Below, one piece after another: positions 6,191 through 62,059 of a DNA stretch of 62,810 nt; the stretch's first letter is position 1, and each line of letters starts with the position of its first letter. This DNA comes from Arcobacteraceae bacterium (GTDB taxonomy: Bacteria > Campylobacterota > Campylobacteria > Campylobacterales > Arcobacteraceae): positions 1 to 62,810 of the forward strand of contig JBLWVX010000014.1 in assembly GCA_048268245.1 (NCBI GenBank), written 5' to 3'. The notes under the pieces were generated by a model that made no database searches, had not been told where the DNA came from, and saw only the letters and a list, made by a program, of their open reading frames with translations. Both the position numbers and the translations under genes were made by a program.

Positions 6191-6192
6191 TC

Positions 6193-6972
6193 ATGAATGA
6201 AGAAAAAGACATACATGAACAAATAAAAGAAAAAATATTAAAAGAACAAAGTAAGATCAGTCTTTGGCAACAAATAAAAGAAGACTTTTCTGTACCAAAA
6301 CAAAATGACCCTGCGCTTAATTCAAATTTTGAACTATTTTTTAATTACCCAGGTGTTTGGGCAATTGTAAATCACAGAATCGCAAATAGATTATATAACA
6401 AAGGTTGGACTAAACTTTCAAGATTTATTGTAGGAATTAGTTCACTATTTACAAAAACTGATATTCACCCTGCTGCAACTATTGGAAGAAGAGTATTTAT
6501 CGACCATGCTATTGGTGTAGTTATTGGTGCAACTTGTGTAATTGAAGAAGATGTATTAATCTACCAATGTGTAACACTTGGTGGAGTAAGTCTTGATAAA
6601 GGGAAAAGACACCCTACTGTAAAAGCAAATGCAGTTATAGGAAGTGGTGCAAAGGTTTTAGGAAACATCATAATTGGAAAAAACTCAAAAGTTGGAGCAA
6701 ACTCTGTTGTAGTTTGTGATGTGCCAAAAAACTCAACAGCTGTTGGTGTTCCTGCAAAAATTATCAAAAAAGATAATAAAAACTGCAAGCTTGCCCATGG
6801 TGATTTACCTGATATTAATAAAGAGATGTTTAAATACCTTATTGAAAGAATTCATGTTTTAGAAGTAGCACTAAAAGAAGAAGATGGAATTGATGTAAGT
6901 GATAAAGATAAAAAACTTGAAGAAGATTATAATAAGTTTATTAATGCAATGAACTCAATAAAAAAGAAATAA
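6193..6972 (+). CDS. cysE: Serine O-acetyltransferase
   Basis: DIHPAATIGRRVFIDHAIGVVIG, VTLGG..KRHPT hexapeptide repeats; start moved to ATG 6193 after GGAG and after the speA stop. Confidence 0.93.
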   Translation: MNEEKDIHEQIKEKILKEQSKISLWQQIKEDFSVPKQNDPALNSNFELFFNYPGVWAIVNHRIANRLYNKGWTKLSRFIVGISSLFTKTDIHPAATIGRRVFIDHAIGVVIGATCVIEEDVLIYQCVTLGGVSLDKGKRHPTVKANAVIGSGAKVLGNIIIGKNSKVGANSVVVCDVPKNSTAVGVPAKIIKKDNKNCKLAHGDLPDINKEMFKYLIERIHVLEVALKEEDGIDVSDKDKKLEEDYNKFINAMNSIKKK

Positions 6973-6973
6973 T

Positions 6974-7705
6974 ATGTTTGAATTAGCATCTTTTGGAATA
7001 TTAACTGGATTTATATCAGGTTTCTTTGGTGTAGGTGGAGGAATGATTCTTATACCTATGCTTTTAGTGTCTGGATTCATGATGAAAGAAGCTATTGCTA
7101 TATCTATTATGCAAATGGTTTTTTCATCTATTTATGGTACTTTTTTAAATACAAGAAAAGCAAAAAATATTCTAAAAGATGGTCTTATAATTGGTATTGG
7201 TGGTTTTGTAGGAGGTTTACAAAGTGGATTTATCGTATCAAATGTATCAAATCTTACTTTACAATACTTATTTATAGCTATTTTAATCTTCTCAATTATA
7301 AAAATATTTATAACGCCTGCTGAACATAAAGAAGAACCTCAAATAAAAAATAAGTTTACTCTTTTTATGATTGGTTTCTTTACAGGAATTATTGCTATGA
7401 GTATTGGAGTTGGTGGTTCTGTAATTTTAACTCCAATTTTGATAGGCTTTCTAAGATATGATTTAAAAGCAGCTACAGCTTTAGGTCTATTTTTTGTAGT
7501 ATTCTCATCTATTGCTGGATTTAGTTCTTTATCTTTAAATGGGCATATGCTTTTTACTGAGGGAGCTATAGTTGGACTTGCATCACTTGTGGGTGTTTAC
7601 TTTGGTATTAAAATTAAAAACATAGTTCATTCTAACTCATATAAAAAATATATTCTTTTACTAAATACAATTATCTTAATTGTAATGTTGTACAAAACTT
7701 TATAA
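6974..7705 (+). CDS. Sulfite exporter TauE/SafE family membrane protein
   Basis: Duplicated GF(I/F)(S/T)G..GVGG motif, about 8 hydrophobic segments. Confidence 0.85.
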   Translation: MFELASFGILTGFISGFFGVGGGMILIPMLLVSGFMMKEAIAISIMQMVFSSIYGTFLNTRKAKNILKDGLIIGIGGFVGGLQSGFIVSNVSNLTLQYLFIAILIFSIIKIFITPAEHKEEPQIKNKFTLFMIGFFTGIIAMSIGVGGSVILTPILIGFLRYDLKAATALGLFFVVFSSIAGFSSLSLNGHMLFTEGAIVGLASLVGVYFGIKIKNIVHSNSYKKYILLLNTIILIVMLYKTL

Positions 7706-7776
7706 ATTAGATAAAAAATTTGATTTGTAAACTACTTTTCAGTACTATTCGTTGTAAATAAAATATAAGGTTTAAT

Positions 7777-9594
7777 TTGAAAAATAACTTTTTAAAATTT
7801 ATTATTGAAAATAGTAGTGATATAGCTTATGAAATCAATTTAGAAAGTAAGAAAATAAAATGGTATAAAGACTTAAATGCCTTATTAGAGTATGATAAGA
7901 GTAAAAATTTATCAGATATTGACTCTTTTATTCAAATAATAAAAAAAAGTCATCGTAATATTTTTTTGGAAAAACTTACTATAAATGATGCTGAAAAAAG
8001 AAGTCTAAAGTATAAAATCAAAAAAAATAATAAAGAATTCCAAGAATGGATTGATACTTTTATAAAAGATGGAAACAAAATATTTGGTGTTTGTAAAATC
8101 AATTACAAAAAATTATCTCTTGAAGTAAAAAGAAGTAAAAAAAGATACCAAAAACTTTTTGAAGCAAATAAAATTCCAGTACTTGTAACATCTCTAAAAA
8201 CAGGTAAAATTATAAAAGCAAATAAAGCTGCCAATAAATTTTATGGTTATACATCAAAAGAGTTTAAAAAACTGCATATTACTGATATAAATACCCTGCC
8301 TTATGAAGACTTACAAAAAGATATCCAAAAAGCTTTAACTGATGAAAAAGAGTGTTTTAACTTTAAGCATAAAATCAAAACAGGAAAAATAATTGATGTT
8401 GAAGTTTATACAGGACCAATAAGTCTAAAAAAAGAAAACCTTATTTATTCTATTGTTTTTGATATTACAAAAAGAAAACAAGCCTTAAAGAAACTAAAAC
8501 TATCTGATACTATCTATGAAAATACTAAAGAAGGAATTTTTATTACTGATTTAGATACAAGAATTCTATCTGTAAATAAAGCCTTTGAAGACATCACAGG
8601 ATATAAAGAAAAAGAAGTACTAAATAAAAAAGTAAGCATTTTAAAATCAAACAAACACTCAAAAGCCTTTTATAATAATCTATGGAGTTCTATAAAGTCA
8701 AAAGGTTCATGGGAAGGTGAGATAATAAACAAAAATAAAAGAGGTGACTTTTTCCATCAATGGGTTACAATAAATTGTGTTTATGATGATAATAATCAAC
8801 CTACAAACTATATCTCTGTATTTACAGATTTTACAAAGTTAAAAGAACAAGAAAATCTTTTAAGAGAAAAAGATAAAATCATGTTCCAACAATCAAAAAT
8901 GGCTTCAATGGGTGAGATGTTAAAAAACATAGCTCATCAGTGGAGACAACCTTTATCTGTTATTACTTCATCTGCATCAGGTCTTAAACTAAAAAAAGAA
9001 TTTGGAATGTTAAGTGATGAAGATTTTAATGAATTTGCAGAAGGTATTTTAAAATCAGCAACTTATCTTTCTCAAACAATAGATGACTTTTCAAACTACT
9101 TCAAAAATAGCTCAGACCAAGAAGTGTTTTTAGTAAATGACGTAATAGAAAAAGCTATTCAATTAACTGATTCATCTTTAAAAAGCTTGGATATAAATGT
9201 AAATACAAACTTTGAAAAAGATAGTAAAATATTTGGAATTAAAAATGAACTTATTCAAGTTTTACTAAATATTATAAATAATTCTAAAGATGCTTATAAA
9301 AACTCTAAAGATATAAAAAAGACAATTGAAATTGAAACAAAAGAAGAGTTACTAAATGCGAGTATCACAATCAAAGATTTTGCAGGTGGAATTGATGAGG
9401 GGATTTTAGATAAAATATTTGAGCCATACTTTACAACAAAACATCAAAGCCAAGGAACAGGAATAGGACTTTATATGTCGAAGCAAATTGTTGAAGATAG
9501 ATTAAATGGCTCTATAAATGTTCAAAATATAAATGAAGACAATAAAAAAGGTGTAATGTTTAAAATACTTATTCCTATAAATGAGAAGAATTAA
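7777..9594 (+). CDS. Cytoplasmic multi-PAS sensor histidine kinase
   Basis: PAS segments (ANKAANKFYGY, VNKAFEDITGY..WEGEIINK), H-box IAHQWRQP, N/G boxes, FEPYFTTK, GTGIGL. Confidence 0.92.
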   Translation: MKNNFLKFIIENSSDIAYEINLESKKIKWYKDLNALLEYDKSKNLSDIDSFIQIIKKSHRNIFLEKLTINDAEKRSLKYKIKKNNKEFQEWIDTFIKDGNKIFGVCKINYKKLSLEVKRSKKRYQKLFEANKIPVLVTSLKTGKIIKANKAANKFYGYTSKEFKKLHITDINTLPYEDLQKDIQKALTDEKECFNFKHKIKTGKIIDVEVYTGPISLKKENLIYSIVFDITKRKQALKKLKLSDTIYENTKEGIFITDLDTRILSVNKAFEDITGYKEKEVLNKKVSILKSNKHSKAFYNNLWSSIKSKGSWEGEIINKNKRGDFFHQWVTINCVYDDNNQPTNYISVFTDFTKLKEQENLLREKDKIMFQQSKMASMGEMLKNIAHQWRQPLSVITSSASGLKLKKEFGMLSDEDFNEFAEGILKSATYLSQTIDDFSNYFKNSSDQEVFLVNDVIEKAIQLTDSSLKSLDINVNTNFEKDSKIFGIKNELIQVLLNIINNSKDAYKNSKDIKKTIEIETKEELLNASITIKDFAGGIDEGILDKIFEPYFTTKHQSQGTGIGLYMSKQIVEDRLNGSINVQNINEDNKKGVMFKILIPINEKN

Positions 9595-9780
9595 AATAGA
9601 GGTTTTCTAAAGTTCAATATTCTATTATATATATGATAAAAGCAGTAGCTATTAAATGGCTATTGTGGATTATTATTCTTTTTATAATTGATTTATAGAC
9701 TTATTCGATAGCATAGTCTCCTAAGAAAAAAAATGCTAACATATATTATAAATCATGGATATATTTCCAAAAGGTTAACA

Positions 9781-11568
9781 TTGAAAATTATATTAATTTT
9801 TCTATCAGTAATAAGCACTTTATATTCAAATATAATTATAGACAATGATATTCGTAAAAAAGATAATTTCACTCTAGAAATGTTTTACGATGATTCTAAA
9901 AAACTTACAATTGAAACCCTTCAGAATAAAACATTTAAAAAAATACCTAGTCAATTTACTTTTGGACATAAAAGAGGTAATTTTTGGTTCAAATTTACAA
10001 TTGAAAATCATAGCTCTAACAAAGATTTTATTTTAAATTTTAGCGAACCATATTATGAAGAAATGAGTCTTTACAAAAAGGTAAATAACTATTGGGTAGA
10101 AGAGAAAAATGGTTTAATAAAACCTTTAAAACAGCGAGAGGTTTTAAACCACAATCCAAGTTTTGAGCTAAAAATAAAACCAAACAAAATCAAGACTTTT
10201 TATATTAAATCAAACTCTAAATTAACTACATCAGGAGAGCTTGAAATATATAAAAAAAAGTATTTCAATTCTATAGATGGCTATTATCATGATAACTTAT
10301 ATATGTTTTACTTTGGAATACTCTTTATTATTACAATAATAAATTTATTTATCTATTTTAGATTAAAAGAAAATATTTATCTTTATTACAGTGGATACAC
10401 ATTTTTTTATCTTCTATGGGTTAGTGCTTATAGTGGGTTGATTTTATATACTCCTTTAGAAGGGTATTACTATAATTTTCTTATGGTTACACCTATGTTT
10501 ATTATGTTCTTGATTCTTTTTTCATCTGAGTTTTTAAATGTAGAAAAATATTTACCAAAAATCTATAAACCCTTAAATATCTTTGGATATATTTTTGGGG
10601 TGTTAGCACTTCTAATAGCTTTTAATTTTGAACCTTGGTTTGAAATCATGAATAAATTAGCTTCTGTATTATTTTTAGTTTTATTCTCTGTAGCTATTTA
10701 TATTTTAAGAAAAAAGAATAATATAAACACAAAATATTATCTTTTTGCTATGAGTATTTACATGATAACAATTTCATTAATGTCTGCAATGGTAAATGGC
10801 TGGATTGAGAACAATGACATCAATAGATACTCATTCTTATATGGATCAATTTTTGAAATATTGTTTTTCACAATGTTTCTTGTAAATCGATTTTATGTAT
10901 TTCAAAATGAAAAACTTACTATACAAAAAGAACTTTTAGAGTTGAAAGATAAAAATGAGATTATTTTAGAGGCAAAAGTACAAGATAGAACAAATAGCTT
11001 AACAATTGCAAATGAGGAGCTGAACCATTTAATGCAAGAAAAAGAATTGTTACTCAAAGACTTAAAACTACTTGCAATTACTGATTCAATGACAAAGTTA
11101 TATAACAGAAGATATTTTACTGAAGTATCAGAAAATATTGTATCTTTATCTAGAAGAAAAAAAGAATTATTGTCAATAATTATGATTGATATTGATAAGT
11201 TTAAAAATATAAATGATACATACGGACATCAATCTGGTGATGATGTGATAATATTATTATCAAATATACTTATTAAGAGTCAAAGAAAAAGTGATATTAT
11301 TTGTAGATATGGGGGAGAAGAATTTGCAATATTACTTCCTTATACCTCACTTGATTCAGCAGTAGCTGTAGCAGAAAAAATACGCCTGCTTGTAGAATCC
11401 TCAAGTATTACTCTTTTATCAAATAAAGATTTTCATTTTACTATAAGTTCAGGTGTATCTCAAGTAAACCTAGAAAATGAAAATTGTATTGAAACTGCTT
11501 TAGGAAGAGCTGACAATGCACTCTATCAAGCTAAAAATAGTGGTCGTAACAAAGTTTGCATAGGATAA
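9781..11568 (+). CDS. 7TM-DISM sensor diguanylate cyclase (GGDEF)
   Basis: Periplasmic DISM-like domain (WFKF), 7 TM segments, DIDKFKNINDTYGHQSGD, RKSD I-site, YGGEEF; TTG 9781 follows AAGG (track start 9733). Confidence 0.88.
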   Translation: MKIILIFLSVISTLYSNIIIDNDIRKKDNFTLEMFYDDSKKLTIETLQNKTFKKIPSQFTFGHKRGNFWFKFTIENHSSNKDFILNFSEPYYEEMSLYKKVNNYWVEEKNGLIKPLKQREVLNHNPSFELKIKPNKIKTFYIKSNSKLTTSGELEIYKKKYFNSIDGYYHDNLYMFYFGILFIITIINLFIYFRLKENIYLYYSGYTFFYLLWVSAYSGLILYTPLEGYYYNFLMVTPMFIMFLILFSSEFLNVEKYLPKIYKPLNIFGYIFGVLALLIAFNFEPWFEIMNKLASVLFLVLFSVAIYILRKKNNINTKYYLFAMSIYMITISLMSAMVNGWIENNDINRYSFLYGSIFEILFFTMFLVNRFYVFQNEKLTIQKELLELKDKNEIILEAKVQDRTNSLTIANEELNHLMQEKELLLKDLKLLAITDSMTKLYNRRYFTEVSENIVSLSRRKKELLSIIMIDIDKFKNINDTYGHQSGDDVIILLSNILIKSQRKSDIICRYGGEEFAILLPYTSLDSAVAVAEKIRLLVESSSITLLSNKDFHFTISSGVSQVNLENENCIETALGRADNALYQAKNSGRNKVCIG

Positions 11569-11599
11569 GTTTACAATGGTTCCTTTTTTACTAAAAAAA

Positions 11600-11654
11600 G
11601 GTACAGGTGTTGAATTGTGAATTTAGTTTTAAAAGTGGGAATCATAACCTGACC
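11600..11654. repeat. Palindromic intergenic repeat, copy 1
   Basis: GGTACAGGTGTTGAATTGTGAATTTAGTTTTAAAAGTGGGAATCATAACCTGACC; closely similar to 12314 and 14104. Confidence 0.9.
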
Positions 11655-11688
11655 TATATTTTTCAATGATTTGTGATAAGTAAGTTAT

Positions 11689-12201
11689 TTAGCGAAAGTT
11701 TTTTAATATATAATTTCGCCCTTTGCCATTTAATGCAAATGTAGTATTCTCATTAAATTTGTCATAACGTTGCAAAAGATTCAAATTATGTGATAATTTT
11801 AAGACTGATTCTTCTACTCTTAACATATCATTACTGTTTACTAGTCTTTCTATTTCTAAAATATCAAGTCTTCTGCCAAAATTTCTATTATTGTCAAAAA
11901 TTGTAAGTATCTTCCTATCAAGTTCTGTTAAACTTTCCATTTCAATATATTCTTGTTTTTTTTGATTCTTAGCATATAAAAATAGAATTCCCACTATTAA
12001 TATAAAAAATAGAATTAATTTCCATATTACTACTTCATATGTAATAATGAAAATTAGACCGTTAAGTAGATAATTGTAAGAAGTTTTTATATATTGCCAT
12101 AATGTATCAAATATTGTTAAACTAACACCTCCTCCAATTAACAAAAGTAAAATTCCAGATAAAACAGGATGCTCTGTAATTTTCAAAAGTTTATTCAGCA
12201 A
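11689..12201 (-). CDS. Hypothetical membrane protein lying between repeat copies 1 and 2
   Basis: 170-aa ORF, TTG start after AAAGGA, two N-terminal hydrophobic segments, soluble C-terminal domain that may be winged-helix-like. Confidence 0.7.
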   Translation of the reverse strand: MLNKLLKITEHPVLSGILLLLIGGGVSLTIFDTLWQYIKTSYNYLLNGLIFIITYEVVIWKLILFFILIVGILFLYAKNQKKQEYIEMESLTELDRKILTIFDNNRNFGRRLDILEIERLVNSNDMLRVEESVLKLSHNLNLLQRYDKFNENTTFALNGKGRNYILKNFR

Positions 12202-12313
12202 AAATCCTTTTTAATTATTCACTTATAACTATTTATTAAACTTACATTATATACAAGATAAGCTAAAAATTAATTAATAATATATTTTATGTATATAAGA
12301 TATTAAGAACGAA

Positions 12314-12370
12314 GGTGTCAGGTGTTGAATTATAATTTAGTTTTAAAAAGTGGAAATTCAAGACCTGACC
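12314..12370. repeat. Palindromic intergenic repeat, copy 2 (most complete)
   Basis: GGTGTCAGGTGTTGAATTATAATTTAGTTTTAAAAAGTGGAAATTCAAGACCTGACC; arms GTCAGGTGTTGAATT / AATTCAAGACCTGAC pair with one mismatch. Confidence 0.92.
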
Positions 12371-12520
12371 CTTATTTATTTAAGTCCTTTTAAAGTGATG
12401 GCTGCCCCTATTTTTCTGCTATTTTTAAAAAGATCTATTTATTAACTCAAATACATGGATTTATCAATCATTAAGTTACTATTAAGTATATTTCTAAATT
12501 ATTTTCAAATAGGATTATTA

Positions 12521-13801
12521 ATGAAAAAGTTTTTATTTATACTTGTATTATTTTTTGGTGGATTGTTTTATTCAATTTATAATTTTGGGTTTAATTATTC
12601 ATATCTAAAACTAGTTGGGCTCTTCACTTCTACAGAACAATACTCAGTGAAAGTAAAAAAGTTTATTACTGATGACAAGATGTATGAAAGAACATCTTTT
12701 ATTTCTTTTATTACTGAAAAAGATTATGAAACTATTAAATATATAACGAAGAAGAAAAAGCTTGAAAATGAAATAATTGATGAGCTAATAAAACTAAATA
12801 ATACTGATATAATAAAAGATTTATTAACTAATAAAGATTTAATAAACAAAACAATTACAAGACTTATAGCTATTGGAAATAAAGAGCAAAAAATACTTGT
12901 TAGTAAATATGAGAATATTCCAGAAGAAGCTATATTAATAATGTTAAATCAAAAAGAGTTTTTTCTAATCAAGAAACTACTTAATAATAAAGTCGTATTT
13001 CCAACTTTTTTAAAAGCTTACAAAAAGTATTTAAGTAATAGTAGAAATATGGATTTTATTAATAATAAATATATAGACTTTAATTTATTTAAAACTATAA
13101 CATTAGGTGATTATGAAGATGTTCTATTTTTTACCGTTGCAAATGAAAAGACAGGACTATTTGAACTTATATATATTCAGAATAATAAAATTATCATTAA
13201 TGATAAAAATATATTTAGGTATGGTATTGAACCAAAGTATGCAAAAGGTATAGAATATTTCTCACCAGGATTCCAAAAAGCAAGAAAAAAAGCTGAAACT
13301 TTCGGGATTAAAACAAATAAAAAAGTATTAAAAAGATTAAATAAAATTGGTGAAGATATTAAAAAACATACAATAGCAGAAACATCATATGAAACTGGAC
13401 AACTTAGTATACCAACTCTTCTATCTATTGGTCTAGCAGCAGGAAAAACTTATCTTAATAGAGAAAAAGCTATTAAAGAAGCTCCAAGAAATAGAGAAAC
13501 TGTATTGAAATATTTAATTAAAGCAGAAGCATATCAGACTTTAAAAAGAAAATTTCAAAAAGCTTCTACTAAAGAAGTATTACTACTTTGGAAACAGTTA
13601 TTAAATGCTAATGATGATGCGATGTACGGTTCATTTGTTATTCAATTATCAAAAATGAAAAAAATCAATAATACTATTCTTAATGAAATAGTTAAATCAA
13701 AAGTTAAACCTATGTATAAAATGATGGCTGACCTAAAAAATATACCAAGAAAGTATAAAAAAATATTTGCCAACTACGAAAATATAAAAAGTGAAAATTA
13801 A
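12521..13801 (+). CDS. Hypothetical membrane-anchored protein between repeat copies 2 and 3
   Basis: Long ORF; ATG 12521 follows AGGA and gives MKKFLFILVLFFGG signal/anchor (track start 12455); no recognisable motif. Confidence 0.72.
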   Translation: MKKFLFILVLFFGGLFYSIYNFGFNYSYLKLVGLFTSTEQYSVKVKKFITDDKMYERTSFISFITEKDYETIKYITKKKKLENEIIDELIKLNNTDIIKDLLTNKDLINKTITRLIAIGNKEQKILVSKYENIPEEAILIMLNQKEFFLIKKLLNNKVVFPTFLKAYKKYLSNSRNMDFINNKYIDFNLFKTITLGDYEDVLFFTVANEKTGLFELIYIQNNKIIINDKNIFRYGIEPKYAKGIEYFSPGFQKARKKAETFGIKTNKKVLKRLNKIGEDIKKHTIAETSYETGQLSIPTLLSIGLAAGKTYLNREKAIKEAPRNRETVLKYLIKAEAYQTLKRKFQKASTKEVLLLWKQLLNANDDAMYGSFVIQLSKMKKINNTILNEIVKSKVKPMYKMMADLKNIPRKYKKIFANYENIKSEN

Positions 13802-14059
13802 ATGAAAAAATATGAAAACTTTTTTTGGTTTAGTATACTAAGTCTCTTTTTATTCTTATTAAGTATAGCTTCAATTGATACTATCTTAAAAATAATTAGT
13901 ATTTTAAATGACACAAATAATGATAAATCAACAAGTGAATATATAGTTGTTACTCTATTTACACTTTTTGCTGTAATCACATGGACTTATTTGTGGACAA
14001 ATATGAAATATTATGAGAAAAAATGTGTAGAAGACTGGGAAAGAATTAAAAAAAAATAG
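13802..14059 (+). CDS. Small hypothetical 2-TM protein
   Basis: 85 aa, starts immediately after the previous stop, two hydrophobic segments. Confidence 0.6.
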   Translation: MKKYENFFWFSILSLFLFLLSIASIDTILKIISILNDTNNDKSTSEYIVVTLFTLFAVITWTYLWTNMKYYEKKCVEDWERIKKK

Positions 14060-14103
14060 AGATGTTATTTTTGGTATTGAGGGTACAATCTATTTAATAC
14101 TAA

Positions 14104-14152
14104 GGTCAAGTATTGAATTGTGAATTTAGTTTTAAAAAGTGGAAATTCATGA
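14104..14152. repeat. Palindromic intergenic repeat, copy 3 (right arm truncated)
   Basis: GGTCAAGTATTGAATTGTGAATTTAGTTTTAAAAAGTGGAAATTCATGA, then diverges (no CCTGACC). Confidence 0.88.
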
Positions 14153-14182
14153 TATACAAAAATAACTTATAAAACAAATAAT

Positions 14183-16684
14183 CTACCTATTCAACAAGTA
14201 GTTTATAACACCTTTATTTCTAAAATACTCTAACTCTAAATCATTCAGAAGTTTTACTTGAACCTCTATAATCTCAACCTCATCAAATCTTTTTATTTTT
14301 ATTTCTGTTTTACTATTTGAAGTTATATTTTCACAATCTATTGAAATAGTTTCATGACCTTTTAGTTTCAAACTATCAATATCATCTTCTATAAAACATA
14401 AAGGAAGAATTCCCATCTTTACCAAGTCTGCTCTATGTTCTTCATCAAAAGATTTAGCAATCACACAATTAATTCCTAAAAGTTTTGTAGCTTTAGCAGC
14501 CCAATCAGTAGACTCTCCTACTCCATAGTTCTGTCCTGCTATCAAAACTAAATCATGGTTTTGCTCTTTCATTCTATGGCAAAACTCATATATTGGTAAA
14601 ACTTCATAAGAATCAAAATCTTTAGTATATCCACCCTCTTTTGGTAAAACCATTCTATTTTTTACACCAATATTCGAAAAAGCTCCTCTTTTTAACAACT
14701 CACTATTTGATCTTCTTTTTGAAAAAGTATTAAACTCATCTGGTCTTAATCCCTTATCCAATAAATAAAAAGCAGCAGGAGAGTAAGGAGTGATATTTTC
14801 ACTAGGTGAGATTAGCTCACTTGGAATATCATCGCCTAATAAAGCAACAATCTTTGCATCTTTTATTTCTAAGTTTTCTTTATCTATTATATGATAATCA
14901 GATTTTTGGATATAACTTGAATCTTCACTCCAAGGGTAAGTTTCACTTTGCTTATACTCTATACCTTGCCAGTAATCATCGCCTTTAAAAATATCCTTAT
15001 ATACATTTTGATACATTTGACTACTAATTTTTGATAGATACTCATTTACTTCTGAGATACTAGGCCATAAATCACTTAAAAATATATCTGTATTAACTGG
15101 CTCTTTTGTAACAGAAAAATTCATATTTCCTTTTAAACAATAAGCAACAACTAAAGCAGGTGACATCAACCAGTTTGATCTTACTTGATCCCTTGATAGA
15201 GTTTCTAAGTCAACTCCTGAATTTACAGAAGATACATTTAGATTAAATTTTTGTATATCTAAAACTACACTTTCTCTTAGCTTATGTGAGTCATTTACTA
15301 AATCTAAGCTATTTATATCAACTATTTTAAATCCTAGTTGCTCAAAATACTTCAATAAATCCAACTCTTCTAAATAGTTCTTGATTACAAGTGAGCCTAA
15401 AATCAAACTTCTATTAATATTTTTATTTATTGTAAGATTTAGCATACAAGCTTTTTTAGCTAATAAACCTGCTTGAATCAACAAGGTAGGATTTGAAGTT
15501 AAAGTACATGAAACAATATTTGCTAAAACAATATCATTGTCTTTTACAAAGTTTCCTATTTTAAAAGATTGAAGTTTTGATGGTACATGCTCAACTGTTA
15601 CTCTTTGCTCTTCAGTTTTTGGACCTGAAACCAAAGGTTTTATTTTTGAAAGCTCAAAGATAAACTTTTTATCATAATCAAAATCCCAAATATCTATAGA
15701 GTTATTGAATAAACCTTGTTTTTGAAAATAAGTTTTTATTAAAGTAGCATCAACACCTCTTGTTTTCTCAATAAAATCGATTGTATTACTATCAATACAA
15801 AAGTATCCACAAGCAGCTCCACACTCAACAACTATTTGAGATAAATAGGCTCTATCTTCAACTGAAATATTTTTTATTCCAGGTCCAAAGAACTCTATTA
15901 TTGTATCGCTTAAATCATCTTTTTCTAAAAGAGTTGATAGGTTTAGTGTTGCATCTAAGATACTAACTCCTTGAGCTAGTGAACCTACAACTTCTACACC
16001 TATTACTTTTGGAATATGCATTTTTACTTTTGGCTCTAAAATAACAGCTTGAGTTTCTAAAGTATTTAACTTCCAAGCTAAAATACCTAAAGAGTTTGTC
16101 ATAATTGCATTAAAATCCGTTCCTACAACACTTTCAGGATATAAAACTATTTTTTCTTCTAAGGACTCTATTGAAACCATTGTTACTAAGTGTTCCAAGT
16201 TCACTTGATGATAAATACCAAAGCCAGGAGGTACAACTGTTAAATTTTCATATCTATTTTGACACCATTTTATAAAATGATGTCTTTGTTTATTTCTTTG
16301 TAAAGATTTATCTCGATTATCATTTACACTATCTTTTACTACTAAATCTAGAGGGATTTTTGGTTTTATAAAGTCATTTTTTTCTAAATTTGATCTATCT
16401 TCATTTAACGAACTTAAATCAACTAATACAGGAACGCCATAATAATCATCCATTATTGCTCTATTTGGATAAAAGCTAACTCTTCTAAAACTATTTCTTT
16501 TAATAAAAGCATCAAGAATATAATTTAAGTTTTCTTCTTTTTCATTTCTAATATTTGCTTCTAAAAGTAATTTTAAACTTGCAGGCAGTTTTCTTAAAGA
16601 TAAATCAGAGTCAATTATCTTTTTTAAATCATAATAAAAAAAAGTATTGCCATTAAATTCAAAACTACTTATAAACTTATTCAA
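14183..16684 (-). CDS. Aconitase A/IRP family homologue, predicted catalytically inactive
   Basis: LPASLKLLLEANIR, VVPPGFGIYHQVNLE, YPESVVGTD, EFFGPG, SCTLTSNP, SPALVVAY, DWAAKATKLLG match AcnA architecture; active-site motifs altered. Confidence 0.88.
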   Translation of the reverse strand: MNKFISSFEFNGNTFFYYDLKKIIDSDLSLRKLPASLKLLLEANIRNEKEENLNYILDAFIKRNSFRRVSFYPNRAIMDDYYGVPVLVDLSSLNEDRSNLEKNDFIKPKIPLDLVVKDSVNDNRDKSLQRNKQRHHFIKWCQNRYENLTVVPPGFGIYHQVNLEHLVTMVSIESLEEKIVLYPESVVGTDFNAIMTNSLGILAWKLNTLETQAVILEPKVKMHIPKVIGVEVVGSLAQGVSILDATLNLSTLLEKDDLSDTIIEFFGPGIKNISVEDRAYLSQIVVECGAACGYFCIDSNTIDFIEKTRGVDATLIKTYFQKQGLFNNSIDIWDFDYDKKFIFELSKIKPLVSGPKTEEQRVTVEHVPSKLQSFKIGNFVKDNDIVLANIVSCTLTSNPTLLIQAGLLAKKACMLNLTINKNINRSLILGSLVIKNYLEELDLLKYFEQLGFKIVDINSLDLVNDSHKLRESVVLDIQKFNLNVSSVNSGVDLETLSRDQVRSNWLMSPALVVAYCLKGNMNFSVTKEPVNTDIFLSDLWPSISEVNEYLSKISSQMYQNVYKDIFKGDDYWQGIEYKQSETYPWSEDSSYIQKSDYHIIDKENLEIKDAKIVALLGDDIPSELISPSENITPYSPAAFYLLDKGLRPDEFNTFSKRRSNSELLKRGAFSNIGVKNRMVLPKEGGYTKDFDSYEVLPIYEFCHRMKEQNHDLVLIAGQNYGVGESTDWAAKATKLLGINCVIAKSFDEEHRADLVKMGILPLCFIEDDIDSLKLKGHETISIDCENITSNSKTEIKIKRFDEVEIIEVQVKLLNDLELEYFRNKGVINYLLNR

Positions 16685-16744
16685 GAGTATTCCTTAAATT
16701 ACTATATATTATTAATATTAAGATAACTAAGTTATGATTAATAA

Positions 16745-17245
16745 CTATTTAAAAATATTAGATAATATTGAGTAAAGAAAAACAATAAAGAAAAAAGATA
16801 CAAGAACTATTAAAACATCTAGTAATATCTTTTTGTTCTCTTCTTTTCTTGTAGATGAGACATAAAGTTTTTTTAAAAAGTCTTGATTTTCTTCTTCTTT
16901 TAGAATTTTTAAACTATTTATTTTTCCTAAAGAAGTATAAGAAATAGTTTTAAGTAAAGATATCCAAAATGATAATATCATAGGTAAAATCAACCAATCT
17001 TGTTTGAAAAAAGCAATCAAAAAAGATCCAATAAAACCAGTAATATAAAAATAGATTACTGTTTTATATGAAAAATAATAGTTTCTTCTTAAAAAGAAAA
17101 ACATACTAAAACATACCAGCATTAAAATAGAGCTAATACCCACTGCTTTATATGTAGAGTAATCTAAAATTTGAAAAATTGCAACTGTTAATGGAACCAT
17201 TGCTATTAATGCATAAGGCCATTGTATTTTAGTGTTTAAATTCAT
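16745..17245 (-). CDS. Hypothetical membrane protein
   Basis: 166 aa, about 5 hydrophobic segments. Confidence 0.65.
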   Translation of the reverse strand: MNLNTKIQWPYALIAMVPLTVAIFQILDYSTYKAVGISSILMLVCFSMFFFLRRNYYFSYKTVIYFYITGFIGSFLIAFFKQDWLILPMILSFWISLLKTISYTSLGKINSLKILKEEENQDFLKKLYVSSTRKEENKKILLDVLIVLVSFFFIVFLYSILSNIFK

Positions 17246-17362
17246 TTTAAGCCATTCTTTTATTATTCTCTATTATATATTTTATTTTATAAAACTTCCT
17301 TTATCGATAATTATACATATGTATCATATAATACTAGCTTCAAAAATTCAAAGGTTATATTA

Positions 17363-20185
17363 ATGCAAGATACTATTAAGATTTTTAACGCAAAAGAAAA
17401 CAATTTAAAAAATATAAATTTAGAGATACCAAAAAACAAGCTTATTGTATTTACGGGACTTTCAGGGTCTGGTAAGTCTACACTAGCTTTTGATACATTA
17501 TATGCAGAAGGTCAAAGACGATATATAGAGTCACTATCAGCATATGCAAGACAGTTCTTAGATAAGGTTGGTAAGCCTGATGTTGAAAGAATTGAGGGAT
17601 TAACACCTGCAATTGCTATTGATCAAAAAACAACATCAAAAAACCCAAGATCAACTGTTGGAACTATTACAGAAGTTTATGATTACTTTAGACTTTTATA
17701 TGCAAGAGTAGGAAAACAACACTGTCACCAATGTGGAGAGCCTATTTCAGAAATGAGTGCTTCTGATATTATTGATCAAGTGCTTAAACTTCCTGAGAAT
17801 TCAAAAGTTGTGATTTTAGCTCCACTTATCAATAGAAAAAAAGGTACCTTTGCTGACTTACTAGAAAGCCTTAGAGGAAAAGGTTATGTAAGAGCTATGA
17901 TTGATGGAGTTATGGCTAGACTTGATGAAGATATAGAATTAGAAAAAAATAAAATGCACACTATTAAAGTAGTAATTGATAGAGTTGTAGTAAAAGAAGA
18001 AAATAAAGAAAGAATCGCACAAGATGTAGAAAAAGGTCTAAAAGAGTCTTATGGGGAACTTGAAGTTGAAGTTTTAAATCACGAAGACGTTGGCTGCGAA
18101 AAACATATACATTATAGTGAACACATGGCATGTTTTTCTTGTAAAATCTCTTTTGAACCTTTAGAGCCTTTATCTTTCTCATTTAACTCACCAAAAGGAG
18201 CTTGTTCTTCTTGTGATGGCTTAGGAATAAGATATGCTTTAGATATGAAAAAAGTTGTAAATGAAGATTTACCTTTAGAAGATGGAGCTATTAGAATTAT
18301 CTATGGATTTAATAAAGGTTTTTATTTCAAAATGCTTATAGCTTATTGTGAAGCTGCCCAAATTGATACTACTATTCCTTTTAGAGATTTACCACAACAT
18401 CAACAAAAAGCCGTTTTACATGGTGGTGTTGAAGAAGCTAAATTTACTTGGAAAAGACATAATCTTACTAGAAAATGGGAAGGAATTGTAAAACTTGCCT
18501 ATGACATGATAAAAGATGAAAAAGATATGGCTGAATACATGACAGAAAAAGTTTGTGATTCATGTAATGGTAATAGACTAAAGCCCTCTTCTCAAAGTGT
18601 AATTGTAGCTAACAAAACAATAGGTGATATTATAAATAAACCTATCGAAGAAGCCCATGCTTTCTTCCAAGATGAGAAGAATTTCGAATACTTCAATCCT
18701 CAAGAAAAAATGATTGCTGCACCAATTCTAAAAGAGATAAAAGAAAGAATATTCTTTTTACATGATGTGGGTCTTGGATATATTACTCTAGGTAGAGATG
18801 CAAGAACTATTTCAGGTGGTGAAGCCCAAAGAATTAGAGTTGCAAGTCAAATTGGTTCTGGTCTTACAGGTGTTATGTATGTATTGGATGAACCTTCAAT
18901 TGGTTTACACGAAAGAGATACAAATAAACTTATCAAAACATTAAAAGCCTTACAAGAAAAAGGAAATACTGTAATAGTTGTTGAACATGATAAGGAAACT
19001 ATTGAAGCTTCTGACTTTATAGTTGATATTGGTCCAAATGCTGGTAAATATGGAGGGGAAGTTGTATTTGCAGGTACTTTAAAACAAATGCAAAAAGCAA
19101 AAACTTTAACAGCAAAATATATGACTGGTCAAAAGAAAATTGACTATGTACATAATAGACCTCAAGAAGAATTTATTAAAATTAAAAATGTAACTATCAA
19201 TAATATTAAAGATTTAGATGTTCAAATTCCACTTAAAAACCTTTGTGCAATTACTGGTGTTTCAGGAAGTGGTAAATCTTCTCTTATATTACAAACACTT
19301 CTTCCTGTTGCAAAAGAGCTTTTAAATCATGCTAAAAAAGTTAAAAAAGTTGATGGAGTTGAAATTGAAGGTTTAGAAAGTCTTGACAAAGTAATCTACC
19401 TTGACCAAAGCCCTATTGGAAGAACGCCAAGAAGTAATCCAGCAACATATACAGGTCTTATGGACGAAATAAGAACACTATTTTCTAAAACAAAAGAAGC
19501 TCAACTTAGAGGTTATAAAATAGGAAGATTCTCATTTAATGTAAAAGGTGGAAGATGTGAGAAGTGTCAAGGTGAAGGTGAAATAAAAATTGAAATGCAC
19601 TTCCTACCAGATATTATGGTTAAATGTGATGATTGTGGTGGACAAAGATATAACCCTCAAACTTTAGAGATTTTATACAAAGGAAAAAATATCTCTGATG
19701 TATTAAATATGAGTGTTGATGAAGCCTTAGAATTCTTTATTAAAGTTCCAAAAATTCATGCTAAATTAAAAACACTTTCTGATGTTGGTTTAGGATATAT
19801 TACACTAGGACAAAATGCAGTTACACTATCAGGTGGAGAAGCACAAAGAATCAAACTATCTAAAGAGTTATCTAAAAAAGATACTGGAAATACTTTATAT
19901 GTATTAGATGAGCCAACTACTGGACTTCACTTTGCAGATGTTGATAGACTTACAAAAGTTTTACATCACTTAGTTGATTTAGGAAACTCCGTACTAGTAA
20001 TTGAGCATAATTTAGATGTTGTTAAAAACTCTGATTGGGTTATTGATATAGGACCTGAGGGTGGAAATAAAGGTGGTACACTTGTTGATGAGGGAACGCC
20101 TGAACAACTAGCTTCAAGACATAAGAAAACTGGTTCATATACAGGATACTATTTAGAAAAAGAACTTGAAGAAATGAAAAAATAA
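17363..20185 (+). CDS. uvrA: Excinuclease ABC subunit A
   Basis: GLSGSGKS and GVSGSGKS Walker A motifs, YAEGQRRY, zinc-finger CxxC pairs, two SGGEAQRI signatures. Confidence 0.99.
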   Translation: MQDTIKIFNAKENNLKNINLEIPKNKLIVFTGLSGSGKSTLAFDTLYAEGQRRYIESLSAYARQFLDKVGKPDVERIEGLTPAIAIDQKTTSKNPRSTVGTITEVYDYFRLLYARVGKQHCHQCGEPISEMSASDIIDQVLKLPENSKVVILAPLINRKKGTFADLLESLRGKGYVRAMIDGVMARLDEDIELEKNKMHTIKVVIDRVVVKEENKERIAQDVEKGLKESYGELEVEVLNHEDVGCEKHIHYSEHMACFSCKISFEPLEPLSFSFNSPKGACSSCDGLGIRYALDMKKVVNEDLPLEDGAIRIIYGFNKGFYFKMLIAYCEAAQIDTTIPFRDLPQHQQKAVLHGGVEEAKFTWKRHNLTRKWEGIVKLAYDMIKDEKDMAEYMTEKVCDSCNGNRLKPSSQSVIVANKTIGDIINKPIEEAHAFFQDEKNFEYFNPQEKMIAAPILKEIKERIFFLHDVGLGYITLGRDARTISGGEAQRIRVASQIGSGLTGVMYVLDEPSIGLHERDTNKLIKTLKALQEKGNTVIVVEHDKETIEASDFIVDIGPNAGKYGGEVVFAGTLKQMQKAKTLTAKYMTGQKKIDYVHNRPQEEFIKIKNVTINNIKDLDVQIPLKNLCAITGVSGSGKSSLILQTLLPVAKELLNHAKKVKKVDGVEIEGLESLDKVIYLDQSPIGRTPRSNPATYTGLMDEIRTLFSKTKEAQLRGYKIGRFSFNVKGGRCEKCQGEGEIKIEMHFLPDIMVKCDDCGGQRYNPQTLEILYKGKNISDVLNMSVDEALEFFIKVPKIHAKLKTLSDVGLGYITLGQNAVTLSGGEAQRIKLSKELSKKDTGNTLYVLDEPTTGLHFADVDRLTKVLHHLVDLGNSVLVIEHNLDVVKNSDWVIDIGPEGGNKGGTLVDEGTPEQLASRHKKTGSYTGYYLEKELEEMKK

Positions 20186-20541: not shown

Positions 20542-20549
20542 CTTGACTT

Positions 20550-61453: not shown

Positions 61454-61714
61454 ATGTTATCTTTAGAACAATTAGAAAAACAACAAGTAGGACTTAGGCT
61501 TCCTAAATATCTGATAGATGAATTAGATGAGCTTACAAAAGAGTATTCACTAAATAGAAGTGATTTAATTACAGAATCAGTTAAAGCTTTTTTAGTTGAG
61601 CAAAAACAAAAAAAATTTTATTCAGATTTTGACCAATCAGCAAAAGAATTAAAATCAATTTTAAATAAAGAAACAAATGAAACAAGTTTAGATGAGCTAA
61701 TAAATGAACTTTAA
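61454..61714 (+). CDS. Ribbon-helix-helix antitoxin
   Basis: QVGLRLPKYLIDELD...NRSDLITESV RHH pattern; acidic tail SLDELINEL; overlaps the toxin. Confidence 0.82.
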   Translation: MLSLEQLEKQQVGLRLPKYLIDELDELTKEYSLNRSDLITESVKAFLVEQKQKKFYSDFDQSAKELKSILNKETNETSLDELINEL

Positions 61715-62024
61715 ACTTATAACCACTCCACAATTTGCAAAATCAGTTAAAAAGCTTTCCAAGAAATATAAACAGATAAAAAATGATTTACAAAATATAC
61801 AAAAAGAAATAGAAAATGAAAACTTCATAGATTTAGGATATAGCTGTTTTAAACTAAGATTGGCAAACTCATCTATACCTACAGGAAAAAGTGGAGGTTT
61901 TAGAGTAATCTACTATAAAAAAATAGAAGATAAAATCTATCTTTTAGAAATATACTCTAAAACAGAGTTAGAAAATATTGATGATTCTAAAATCATTGAA
62001 ATTTTGAAAGACAATGATTTATAG
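61704..62024 (+). CDS. RelE/ParE family type II toxin
   Basis: FAKSVKKLSKKY, KLRLANS..GKSGGFRVIY, LLEIYSK. Confidence 0.9.
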   Translation: MNFKLITTPQFAKSVKKLSKKYKQIKNDLQNIQKEIENENFIDLGYSCFKLRLANSSIPTGKSGGFRVIYYKKIEDKIYLLEIYSKTELENIDDSKIIEILKDNDL

Positions 62025-62049
62025 AAAGTGGAAATTCATGACCTGAGCC
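62025..62049. repeat. Right-half copy of the palindromic repeat
   Basis: AAAGTGGAAATTCATGACCTGAGCC, directly after the toxin TAG; matches the right half of the copies at 12314 and 14104. Confidence 0.85.
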
Positions 62050-62059
62050 TATTTTCTTG

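What the first reader, a model, noticed from the sequence alone, without database searches (positions are those of the whole stretch)
11600..14152. Orphan genes arranged as cassettes between copies of a ~55-bp palindromic repeat
Seen: three same-orientation copies (11600, 12314, 14104) of GG(T)GTCAGGTGTTGAATT-(GTG/AT)AATTTAGTTTTAAAA(A)GTGG-AAATTCAAGACCTGACC. Arms of about 15 bp pair around a conserved asymmetric core. Each interval holds only unrecognisable genes with their own RBS (170 aa on minus; 426+85 aa on plus), between a GGDEF gene and the aconitase-like gene. Outer copies are more eroded than the middle one. A short related-looking remnant (TGGCTGCCCCTATTTTT, 12399-12415) shares the CC(C/T)TATTT tail. 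Known: integron attC sites have RYYYAAC/GTTRRRY cores, which these lack; the intervals are far too long for CRISPR; REP/REPIN hairpins are substrates of HUH tyrosine transposases (RAYT). Inference: these hairpins may be recombination or insertion sites of a non-integron gene-capture system whose enzyme is encoded elsewhere. I recall GGTCAGGTCTTGAA-type repeats beside RAYT-like genes in other bacteria but cannot verify that here.
Basis: partly seen in the sequence, partly recalled or inferred. Interest (0 to 1): 0.85.

Follow-up and report, generated by a model that had tools for sequence, protein, structure and literature searches.

The report
Transposase-end hairpin repeats between variable genes
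The three hairpin repeats are gene-less leftovers of the ends of a small hairpin-cutting transposase element, and in this group of marine bacteria such leftovers sit exactly at the joints between strain-specific genes in a few variable spots of the chromosome.

Summary
Three same-strand copies lie at 11591-11665, 12306-12381 and 14110-14153; the third has lost its right arm. They bracket genes with no family match.

They are not attC sites. The genome has a true integron on another contig, and its attC-like palindromes are unrelated in sequence.

The repeat derives from the ends of a RAYT-like Y1 (HUH) transposase unit. A congener (G001) carries that gene in this same locus, flanked by inverted copies. 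The conserved right half of the repeat holds the gene's last codons and stop. Homologues in other genera are flanked by similar 24-41 nt inverted repeats.

The family is low-copy: 0-11 copies per genome at E<=0.001. All 24 such copies in six species lie in four variable spots. Cargo there differs between species, and some sites are empty with no repeat. Where I aligned the junctions, homology stops at the repeat's ends.

This genome has no Y1 transposase, so its copies are probably fossils. Some cargo also sits in these spots without repeats.

My reading: REPIN/MITE-like relics serving as joints of accessory modules, most likely through recombination between copies. Enzyme-driven gene capture is possible but not shown. 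I found no published description in five searches.

The parts
7777..9594 (+). PAS histidine kinase; conserved left border of variable spot A
   Evidence: Pfam PAS/HisKA/HATPase_c. It is syntenic in G001, G002 and G003.
9733..11568 (+). 7TMR-DISM GGDEF diguanylate cyclase. It is itself variable cargo: present here and in G001, replaced in G002, absent in G003.
   Evidence: Pfam. In G003 the aconitase gene stops 1 bp from the kinase gene with nothing between (L060). G002 has a 642-aa zinc-finger protein in its place.
11591..11665 (+). Repeat copy 1: full length, slightly eroded, shared with G001 together with the GGDEF flank
   Evidence: 70.4 bits. Homology to G001 runs through the copy and stops right after its ...TATTT tail.
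11689..12201 (-). 170-aa ORF with a hydrophobic N-terminal half; no family
12306..12381 (+). Repeat copy 2: the best-preserved hairpin. Its reverse strand carries a promoter-like TTTCCA-16-TATAAT facing the 170-aa ORF.
   Evidence: 78.6 bits; fold z -6.2; promoter-like site 12356->12329 (consensus match only)
12391..12416 (+).
   Evidence: Reading only; no search flagged it.
12455..13801 (+). 448-aa ORF (426 aa from the ATG at 12521, which has an AGGA before it). N-terminal membrane segment, lysine-rich. No relative found.
   Evidence: Found only in G000 at E<=0.001 apart from one marginal hit in G007 (E 2.8e-4, 20.8 bits), among 184 family genomes searched. It is the only hit among the 8000 candidates scored from a 5.8-billion-protein set. 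No atlas hit. Pieces at 99% identity or more occur in contigs of runs X2, X3 and X4.
13802..14059 (+). 85-aa ORF, hydrophobic; no family
14110..14153 (+). Repeat copy 3: left arm, loop and inner right arm only. The outer right arm was lost, together with a ~250-bp module that G001 and G002 keep here.
   Evidence: 42.2 bits, model positions 17-62; comparison
14183..16684 (-). Aconitase-family gene; conserved right border of variable spot A
   Evidence: Pfam; synteny
61454..62024 (+). Antitoxin-like 86-aa ORF plus RelE-like 106-aa toxin; cargo of variable spot C, next to the pseudouridine synthase gene (60676-61233)
   Evidence: Pfam RelE 33.8 bits. G001 has a different ParE pair here between repeat copies. 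G003 has a decayed copy of this pair.
62017..62055 (+). Right-half copy of the repeat, starting at the stop codon of the RelE-like gene
   Evidence: (21.8 bits)

Best explanation
The three repeats are gene-less hairpin derivatives (REPIN- or MITE-like) of the ends of a RAYT-like Y1 (HUH) transposase unit that circulates in Arcobacteraceae.

The conserved, asymmetric right half is the unit's terminal inverted repeat. It overlaps the last codons and the stop of the transposase gene. The left half is a diverged inverted copy of it.

In this genus the family is low-copy and confined to four variable spots of the chromosome. There the copies, all on one strand within a spot, sit at the joints between accessory modules. 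These modules include genes without relatives, toxin-antitoxin pairs, defence-like genes and orphan Rhs toxin tips.

In the window, two such modules (the 170-aa gene, and the 448 + 85-aa genes) were added beside the copy that follows the GGDEF gene.

How the joints arise is inferred, not shown. I think it most likely that the copies act as short portable homology. DNA from the same spot of another strain would recombine through one conserved flank and a repeat copy, or through two copies, so modules are added, lost and reshuffled at the repeats.

Catalysis by the Y1 enzyme on folded single strands is the second possibility. This genome has no such enzyme, so here the array is a fossil of either process.

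My odds:
- repeat derived from the transposase unit: about 0.85
- copies are the actual joints of module turnover: about 0.6
- joints made by homology: about 0.4
- joints made by the enzyme: about 0.2
For: Origin of the repeat (shown):
- G001 has a 255-aa protein in the same locus, between the kinase and GGDEF genes. It matches Y1_Tnp (PF01797, 51.8 bits, cut-off 23). Its best NCBIfam match is REP-associated tyrosine transposase (65.8 bits, below the 80-bit cut-off).
- That gene is flanked by a full copy upstream and an inverted right half at its 3' end. The right half encodes the gene's last residues and stop.
- Homologues (38-51% identity) occur in 26 of 61 relatives.
- In 8 of the 9 homologue loci I scanned, the gene is flanked by inverted repeats about 800-940 nt apart. 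In 7 these are 24-41 nt and 85-100% complementary; the eighth (L050) is 24 nt at 79%. Several share the GGGGTCAGG or TGAAT..CCAC motifs of the window repeat.
- The HUH motif and the tyrosine are invariant in 8 of 8 aligned proteins.
- The family profile hits E. coli TnpA-REP (4er8) at E 9.5e-4.

Confinement (shown):
- 24 of 24 copies at E<=0.001 in the six species genomes of the genus lie in four loci: A 6, B 11, C 1, D 6 (placed).

Variable cargo and empty sites (shown):
- Spot A is empty in G003, with 1 bp between the aconitase and kinase genes. It holds four different contents in G000, G001 and G002.
- Spot B holds 1 copy in G000, 1 in G001, 2 in G003 and 10 in G002, the last with about 16 ORFs that have no Pfam match.
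- Spot D is empty in G003.

Joints (shown):
- In the aligned comparisons, homology between genomes stops directly after the ...TATTT tail. This holds for window copy 1 against G001, for G001 against G002 in spot D, and for the right edge of the G001 transposase insert.
- In other comparisons it starts at the left foot of the stem. This holds for G001 against G002 in spot A, and for G000, G002 and G003 in spot B.

Parallel case (shown):
- In another genus, G029 has ten same-strand ~190-bp gene-less derivatives of its own transposase unit. They are spaced 563-1971 bp apart with mixed cargo between them.

For homology over enzyme (inferred):
- The transposase was not found in G000, G002 or G003, yet G002 has the largest array.
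- Copies do not disperse to new loci.
- Variants cluster weakly by spot: the nearest neighbour shares the spot in 14 of 26 copies and the genome in 9 of 26.
- In G002 the repeated unit includes 130-210 bp of extra shared sequence.
Against: - Cargo can sit in these spots without repeats. In this genome, spot D holds the ankyrin and acetyltransferase genes (93% identical to those of G001) with no copy. In G001 a copy precedes each gene, and the junction sequences differ, so it is not a clean insertion.
- Spot B is also variable in G004, where this repeat was not found. The spots may therefore be variable for reasons unrelated to the repeat.
- Copies are 75 nt long and only about 73-77% alike on average in my trimmed alignment. 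That is poor substrate for RecA.
- No chimeric copy or crossover point inside a repeat was demonstrated.
- No cassette was found in two different spots.
- The species are related, so shared positions may be plain descent. Counts across them are not independent.
- In G029 some cargo is truncated at the element, for example a TauE gene cut to 78 aa. That looks more like insertion or deletion damage than neat cassettes.
- The own genome is a 57-contig draft (99.3% complete), so a transposase gene in a gap cannot be excluded.
Confidence: 0.55

Rival explanations
1. Enzyme-driven gene capture. The hairpins are single-strand recombination sites of the RAYT-like Y1 transposase. It would excise a module with one hairpin as a circle and paste it beside another hairpin, working like an integron without an integrase.
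For: - An intact Y1 gene with the HUH motif and tyrosine lies inside spot A of G001, flanked by the repeat.
- Copies within a spot are all on one strand.
- Homology ends exactly at the feet of the hairpin.
- Empty sites carry no repeat.
- In cargo orientation, the repeat lies 12-80 bp after stop codons and 100-230 bp before the next start.
- Similar arrays occur in G029, which has several transposase copies.
- In spots B, C and D the repeat strand tracks local GC skew. That would fit action on one replication strand, but there are only four independent loci.
Against: - The enzyme was not found in G000, G002 or G003, although G002 has the largest array.
- No module was seen in two different spots.
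- No dispersal to new loci: 24 of 24 copies lie in four loci.
- Cargo exists without repeats.
- Known Y1 elements are not known to carry passengers in this way (recalled).
- No circles or joints were seen, but the only data were short low-depth contigs.
Confidence: 0.2
2. Passive passengers. The copies are old, decaying mobile-element relics that merely survive in DNA under weak constraint. Cargo turnover in these spots would be driven by other means, such as recombination in the conserved flanking genes after DNA uptake.
For: - Spots vary without the repeat (G004 spot B, G000 spot D).
- No covariation, and many eroded or half copies.
- No enzyme in this genome.
Against: - In all the junction comparisons I aligned, homology starts or stops at a repeat end, or within a repeat, on at least one side.
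- Empty sites lack the repeat.
- Copy number rises with the number of modules: 1, 1, 2 and 10 in spot B.
- Copies are same-strand within arrays.
- The design recurs in G029 with a different element sequence.
Confidence: 0.17
3. Integron attC sites in clusters that lack an integrase (CALIN), serviced by the integron integrase encoded on contig C5.
For: - The genome has an integron integrase (TIGR02249, 407 bits, cut-off 265).
- The arrays of same-strand palindromes with unknown small genes and toxin-antitoxin pairs look like cassette arrays.
Against: - The palindromes beside the resident integrase start with ..TAAC and end with GTTA.. (L041 about 3449-3579 and 3900-4030). They share no sequence with the repeat.
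- In the repeat, the GTTGAAT word lies in the 5' arm and ATTCA(T/A)G in the 3' arm. This is the reverse of the attC order, and the GTT faces a mismatch.
- No array is next to an integrase. The integrase is missing or fragmentary in G001, G003, G004 and G005.
- The repeat is explained by the transposase ends.
Confidence: 0.03
4. A family of transcription terminators or another structured RNA element attached to accessory genes.
For: - A hairpin followed by a T-rich tail.
- Copies 1 and 3 and the half copy lie just after stop codons or between convergent genes.
Against: - Copy 2 lies between divergent genes.
- The loop is about 25 nt, and the terminator scan found none.
- No Rfam match on the repeats at E up to 1; the one weak hit in 9000-17000 lies elsewhere.
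- No covariation.
- The conserved core is accounted for by the transposase gene end.
- A side role as terminator or promoter is not excluded.
Confidence: 0.05

Closest known systems
REP/REPIN sequences with their RAYT (TnpA-REP) genes, as in E. coli and Pseudomonas (PMC3116915 and PMC3337134: search listing and abstract only; PMC5581495: passages read)
   Same: - Two inverted arms form a hairpin without a gene.
- A Y1 HUH transposase relative is flanked by the same sequence in inverted orientation.
- The enzyme family is related to 4er8.
- Low-abundance flanking repeats are reported for RAYT groups 1 and 4, at 12-14 occurrences (PMC5581495, passages).
   Different: - Only 0-11 copies per genome (at E<=0.001), against tens to hundreds.
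- Copies are confined to four variable loci and are not dispersed.
- The gene is patchy (26 of 61 relatives) and multi-copy in some genomes.
- The protein has an extra C-terminal helix-turn-helix.
- The arms do not start with the GTAG or CGTC tags named in the abstract of PMC3733652.
- The NCBIfam equivalog score is below its cut-off.
MITEs, meaning internally deleted non-autonomous derivatives of an insertion sequence
   Same: - Both ends of the parent unit are kept and the gene is lost.
- G029's 190-bp form still holds the last ~43 codons.
- The window form keeps the last five codons and the stop.
   Different: - The parent encodes a Y1 HUH enzyme. By recall, such elements usually have subterminal hairpins and no inverted ends.
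- No target-site duplication was seen.
- Copies do not spread through the genome.
Integron cassette arrays and CALINs
   Same: - Same-strand imperfect palindromes 0.5-2.3 kb apart.
- Cargo is mostly unknown small genes and toxin-antitoxin pairs.
- Content differs between close relatives, and empty sites exist.
   Different: - Core words are in the reverse order.
- No adjacent integrase or attI.
- The resident integron uses other palindromes.
- ORFs usually have 100-230 bp of their own upstream DNA.
Repeat-bounded variable islets exchanged by recombination, such as Neisseria minimal mobile elements and pdif modules of Acinetobacter plasmids (both recalled, not read here)
   Same: Different genes occupy the same slot between conserved flanks. 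Short repeats mark the module borders.
   Different: - Here the repeat is a transposase-end hairpin, not an uptake sequence or a Xer site.
- I saw no 11-6-11 dyad of the Xer type by eye, and did not test for one with a tool.
Orphan toxin-tip and immunity arrays of Rhs/polymorphic toxin loci
   Same: The G002 array holds Rhs-core C-terminal fragments (TIGR03696, 48.8 bits) with related pre-toxin stretches repeated between modules.
   Different: - No Rhs-related sequence occurs in the window's modules.
- The hairpin repeat is also present in spots with quite different cargo.

Membership tests
   GTTGAAT lies in the 5' arm and ATTCA(T/A)G in the 3' arm, so the order is reversed. The G and first T of GTT face a conserved G/T mismatch.
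Integron attC site | Array adjoins intI/attI, or shares the attC type of the resident integron | tested here: not met
   intI lies on another contig (C5:101305-102267) beside unrelated palindromes. In relatives, intI is never next to an array.
Integron attC site | Significant score with the IntegronFinder attC covariance model | not testable with these tools
   The model is not available here.
REPIN/REP-RAYT system | Hairpin made of two inverted REP-like arms | tested here: met
   16 pairs, 82% of cells paired in 20 copies; fold z -6.2 for copy 2.
REPIN/REP-RAYT system | A RAYT gene flanked by the same sequence in inverted orientation | tested here: met
   Met in G001 (L024 8039-8806, with copies at 8030-8061 on the minus strand and 8994-9072 on the plus strand). 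In 8 of the 9 homologue loci scanned, the gene is flanked by its own inverted ends. No such gene was found in the window's own genome.
REPIN/REP-RAYT system | Tens to hundreds of copies dispersed in extragenic DNA | tested here: not met
   0-11 copies per genome at E<=0.001. All 24 lie in four loci.
REPIN/REP-RAYT system | Single-copy, vertically inherited RAYT (groups 2 and 3 of PMC5581495) | tested here: inconclusive
   Found in 26 of 61 relatives. Several genomes have 2-5 full or partial copies, and G029 has 24 matches that are mostly fragments. No tree was built.
REPIN/REP-RAYT system | Protein reaches the NCBIfam REP-associated tyrosine transposase cut-off | tested here: not met
   65.8 bits against a cut-off of 80. 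Pfam Y1_Tnp is met, at 51.8 bits against 23.
Y1 HUH transposase (IS200/IS605 superfamily) | HUH motif and catalytic tyrosine | tested here: met
   H59-Y60-H61 and Y118 are invariant in 8 of 8 aligned proteins. The profile hits 4er8 at E 9.5e-4.
MITE | Short gene-less element keeping both ends of an autonomous parent | tested here: met
MITE | Target-site duplication and dispersed insertion sites | tested here: not met
   No duplicated flank appears in the junction alignments. Copies are confined to four loci.

The most novel reading that the evidence does not exclude
A Y1 (HUH) transposase-based counterpart of the integron. The RAYT-like enzyme would cut folded single-stranded hairpins at their feet and exchange strands between two same-strand copies. 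Any module lying between copies could then be lifted out with one hairpin and pasted beside another. This would build the arrays seen in G002 and G029 and the two modules in this window.
Probability: 0.2. Interest if true: 0.85.

Novelty: new variant of a known kind. Interest (0 to 1): 0.5.

Why it matters
REPIN/RAYT systems are described mainly as high-copy, vertically inherited hairpin populations with no cargo. Here a related family is low-copy and confined to a handful of variable loci. It sits at the borders of strain-specific genes, toxin-antitoxin pairs, defence-like genes and orphan toxin tips, and the same design recurs in a second genus.

If the copies are true joints, they offer a simple marker for finding module borders and new accessory genes in Arcobacteraceae. 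They would also be a case of transposase relics reused as recombination points.

If the enzyme itself moves the modules, this would be a second, unrelated way of building cassette arrays from folded single-stranded DNA.

In five full-text searches I found no description of such arrays. Subscription journals are not covered.

Tried and rejected
- Genome-wide REP family: rejected. Only about five copies occur in the own genome.
- Rfam: no family on the repeats. There was one weak unrelated hit, E 0.76.
- RNAalifold found no consensus pairs in the 20-copy alignment. With my own structure there is no covariation beyond the shuffles.
- attC reading: rejected after reading the resident integron.
- Y1 transposase in the own genome: none, with either PF01797 or the G001 protein.
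- The single G001 protein against solved structures: no hit. Only the family profile reached 4er8.
- Function of the window's cargo: nothing from Pfam, NCBIfam, PADLOC, the family-wide genome search, the 5.8-billion-protein search or the protein atlas.
- Shared modules between different spots, or between genera: none. Only same-spot sharing was seen.
- A clean insertion site for a copy between the ankyrin and acetyltransferase genes: not found. The junctions differ over about 310 bp.
- Exact 19-mer scan of 185,579 species genomes. It returned 16 loci, some overlapping or repeated. Nine are in Arcobacteraceae or one unclassified MAG and are true copies. Seven are in unrelated phyla, lie in ABC-ATPase coding DNA and are chance matches.
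- Strand against replication: the repeat strand tracks local GC skew in spots B, C and D. Spot A is ambiguous, and there are only four independent loci, so the hint is weak.
- Clustering of variants by spot: weak. Across genomes, copies in the same spot are 76.1% alike and copies in different spots 72.6%.
- Sequencing runs: no run holds more than 23% of the sampled words, and no RNA holder is listed.
- Laying contigs of X1-X4 gave only short low-depth pieces. No contig bridges a repeat. The 170-aa module has little or no cover, which shows nothing. One X1 record joins 12377 to 9557, which I could not interpret.
- Earlier notes of this scan: none concerns this repeat or locus.
- Not examined: weak blast hits such as G001:2855874, G003:C1:471252 and G005:C44:11770.


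Full report
**1. The observation**

The window holds three + strand copies of a repeat of about 75 nt, at 11591-11665, 12306-12381 and 14110-14153. A covariance model built from 20 copies in three genomes scores them at 70.4, 78.6 and 42.2 bits. Apart from a right-half copy at about 62019-62055 (21.8 bits), the rest of the window is at noise level.

The middle copy is the best hairpin (-24.5 kcal/mol, z -6.2). Copy 1 is eroded and copy 3 has lost its outer right arm.

The intervals hold a 170-aa ORF on the minus strand, and a 448-aa ORF (426 aa from the ATG at 12521) plus an 85-aa ORF on the plus strand. None matches a family in Pfam, NCBIfam or PADLOC. In 184 family genomes the 426-aa protein was found only in this one, apart from one marginal hit in G007 (E 2.8e-4, 20.8 bits). 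It has no relative in a 5.8-billion-protein set. Short contigs from three other public runs carry pieces of it at 99% identity or more, so the gene exists outside this assembly.

The flanks are a PAS histidine kinase, a 7TMR-DISM GGDEF protein and an aconitase-family gene.

**2. Not a genome-wide REP family and not attC**

The own genome (2.68 Mb, 57 contigs, 28% G+C) has only these copies plus one on contig C1.

It does encode a true integron integrase on contig C5 (TIGR02249, 407 bits, cut-off 265). Beside that gene lie palindromes that begin ..TAAC and end GTTA.., as attC sites do. They share no sequence with the repeat.

In the repeat, the word GTTGAAT is in the 5' arm and ATTCA(T/A)G in the 3' arm. 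This is the reverse of the attC order, and the GTT faces a conserved mismatch. In relatives the integrase is never next to an array, and it is missing or fragmentary in four of the five congeners.

**3. What the repeat is**

In G001, the locus syntenic with window 5003-20820 (90-95% identity) carries an extra 1.6 kb between the kinase and GGDEF genes. It holds a 255-aa protein of the Y1_Tnp family with a C-terminal helix-turn-helix. Its best NCBIfam match is REP-associated tyrosine transposase, below that model's cut-off.

A full repeat copy lies upstream of this gene and an inverted right half lies at its 3' end. The right half contains the gene's last five codons and its stop.

Homologues at 38-51% identity occur in 26 of 61 relatives. 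In 8 of the 9 homologue loci I scanned, the gene is flanked by inverted repeats about 800-940 nt apart. In 7 these are 24-41 nt and 85-100% complementary; the eighth (L050) is 24 nt at 79%. Several share the GGGGTCAGG or TGAAT..CCAC words of the window repeat.

The HUH motif and the tyrosine are invariant in 8 of 8 aligned proteins. The family profile reaches E. coli TnpA-REP (4er8) at E 9.5e-4.

The window repeat is therefore the two ends of such a unit without the gene, a REPIN- or MITE-like derivative. The own genome has no Y1 transposase.

**4. Where the copies are**

The genus is represented by six species genomes. At E<=0.001 they hold 11, 7, 3, 2, 1 and 0 copies. All 24 lie in four loci (placed):
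- A, between the kinase and the aconitase genes
- B, between rpsB and a 195-aa gene next to a TonB receptor gene
- C, beside a pseudouridine synthase gene
- D, after a 696-aa gene

A search with filters off adds degenerate copies in the same loci. Within a locus the copies are on one strand, except the half copy at the transposase gene.

**5. Variable cargo and empty sites**

Spot A has a different content in each genome:
- G003: the aconitase gene stops 1 bp from the kinase gene, with nothing between and no GGDEF gene.
- G002: a 642-aa protein, a copy, a 226-aa lipoprotein-like gene, a copy, then a ~250-bp module.
- G001: a degenerate copy, an 84-aa gene, the transposase unit, a copy, GGDEF, a copy, then the ~250-bp module.
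- This genome: GGDEF, copy 1, the 170-aa gene, copy 2, the 448 + 85-aa genes, then truncated copy 3.

Spot B holds one copy here, one in G001, two in G003 and ten in G002. In G002 about 16 ORFs without a Pfam match lie between the copies.

Spot C holds different toxin-antitoxin pairs in this genome and in G001. Spot D is empty in G003 and holds defence-like, HipA and other cargo elsewhere.

Where I aligned the junctions, homology between genomes stops directly after the ...TATTT tail or begins at the left foot of the stem.

**6. A parallel case in another genus**

G029 has ten same-strand, ~190-bp gene-less derivatives of its own transposase unit. Each keeps both ends and the last ~43 codons. 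They are 563-1971 bp apart, with regulators, transporters, a ParE toxin and unknown ORFs between them. Several ORFs end right at the element, and one TauE gene is cut to 78 aa.

**7. What argues for caution**

- In this genome, spot D holds the same ankyrin and acetyltransferase genes as G001 (93% identity) but no repeat. The junctions differ over about 310 bp, so this is not a clean insertion.
- Spot B is variable in G004 without this repeat.
- The transposase was not found in G000, G002 or G003, yet G002 has the largest array.
- No module was found in two different spots.
- There is no covariation in the stem.
- In G002 the repeated unit includes 130-210 bp of additional shared sequence, and the array contains Rhs-core fragments. 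The usual build-up of orphan toxin tips by homologous recombination may explain part of that array.
- The species are kin, so counts across them are not independent.

**8. Mechanism**

Shown:
- the origin of the repeat
- its confinement to four loci
- the variable cargo and the empty sites
- junctions at the repeat ends

Inferred:
- The copies are the joints at which modules are added or lost.
- The most likely way is recombination between copies of the same spot in different strains, anchored by a conserved flank. I put this at about 0.4.

This fits the lack of an enzyme in array-rich genomes, the absence of dispersal, and the weak clustering of variants by spot (nearest neighbour shares the spot in 14 of 26 copies). 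Catalysis by the Y1 enzyme on folded single strands is the bolder reading, at about 0.2. Pure passenger status is about 0.17. In this genome the array is most likely a fossil.

**9. Comparison and novelty**

The system works like a REPIN/RAYT or MITE family in origin and shape. It fails the copy-number and dispersal features of REPINs and the NCBIfam equivalog cut-off. It resembles integron arrays in layout only.

Passages of PMC5581495 report RAYT groups with low-abundance flanking repeats. They do not mention arrays with cargo. Five full-text searches found no description. For PMC3116915, PMC3337134 and PMC3733652 I saw only the listing and abstract. For PMC7923331 I read passages, which concern an IS200/IS605 element beside a CALIN and not this design.

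I file it as a new variant of a known kind, of moderate interest.

Noticed in passing
G000 contig C5, locus L041 1305-6200 (not in the window): A canonical-looking chromosomal integron. It has intI (320 aa, TIGR02249 407 bits), then MarR and polyketide-cyclase genes. Two related attC-like palindromes follow at about L041 3449-3579 and 3900-4030, then a ParE/antitoxin pair. Integron integrases above the cut-off occur in 14 of 61 relatives.
   Followed up: partly
L024 11093-11342 (G001) and L022 7203-7474 (G002); deleted in the window at about 14153-14183: A conserved ~250-bp module between the repeat and the aconitase gene. It has a near-consensus promoter, a terminator-like hairpin with a T run, and then a ribosome-binding site with a 20-codon hydrophobic ORF. 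It looks like a type I toxin-antitoxin or small-peptide locus.
   Followed up: no
L021 6353-16478 (G002:C12): The ten-copy array holds fragments of polymorphic toxins. A 316-aa ORF starts with the end of an Rhs core (TIGR03696, 48.8 bits). Related pre-toxin stretches are repeated in 260-, 163- and 80-aa ORFs, whose listed starts run through the repeat itself. No full-length rhs gene is nearby.
   Followed up: partly
L067 1-14000, L068, L069 (G029): Arrays of a 190-bp gene-less derivative of a RAYT-like unit. Whole modules are duplicated within the array (L067 8686-9560 and 12663-13538, 99-100% identical). In L069 the array lies about 2 kb from an integron integrase gene that carries in-frame stops.
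   Followed up: partly
L005 1240-1600 (G010) and L072: Two tandem 232-bp units, each ending in a right-half copy. They enclose a fragment coding for the first ~54 residues of the RAYT-like protein. This looks like a decayed unit in another genus.
   Followed up: no
window 12329-12356, minus strand: The reverse strand of copy 2 carries TTTCCA-16 nt-TATAAT, facing the 170-aa ORF. It is the best promoter-like match in 11000-14600, but it is a consensus match only.
   Followed up: no
window 12377 and 9557 (run X1): One metagenome contig joins the right end of a copy-2-like repeat to sequence matching the 3' end of the kinase gene, with one extra base between. It may come from a relative with a copy in the kinase-GGDEF gap, as in G001.
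   Followed up: no
L063 8846-10518 (G000:C37) versus L023 6533-8513 (G001): The ankyrin-repeat and hexapeptide acetyltransferase genes overlap by 4 bp here. In G001 they are 308 bp apart with a repeat copy between. G001 also has a 477-bp duplicate of the acetyltransferase 5' part placed right after another copy (L023 6860-7336 and 8689-9163).
   Followed up: partly
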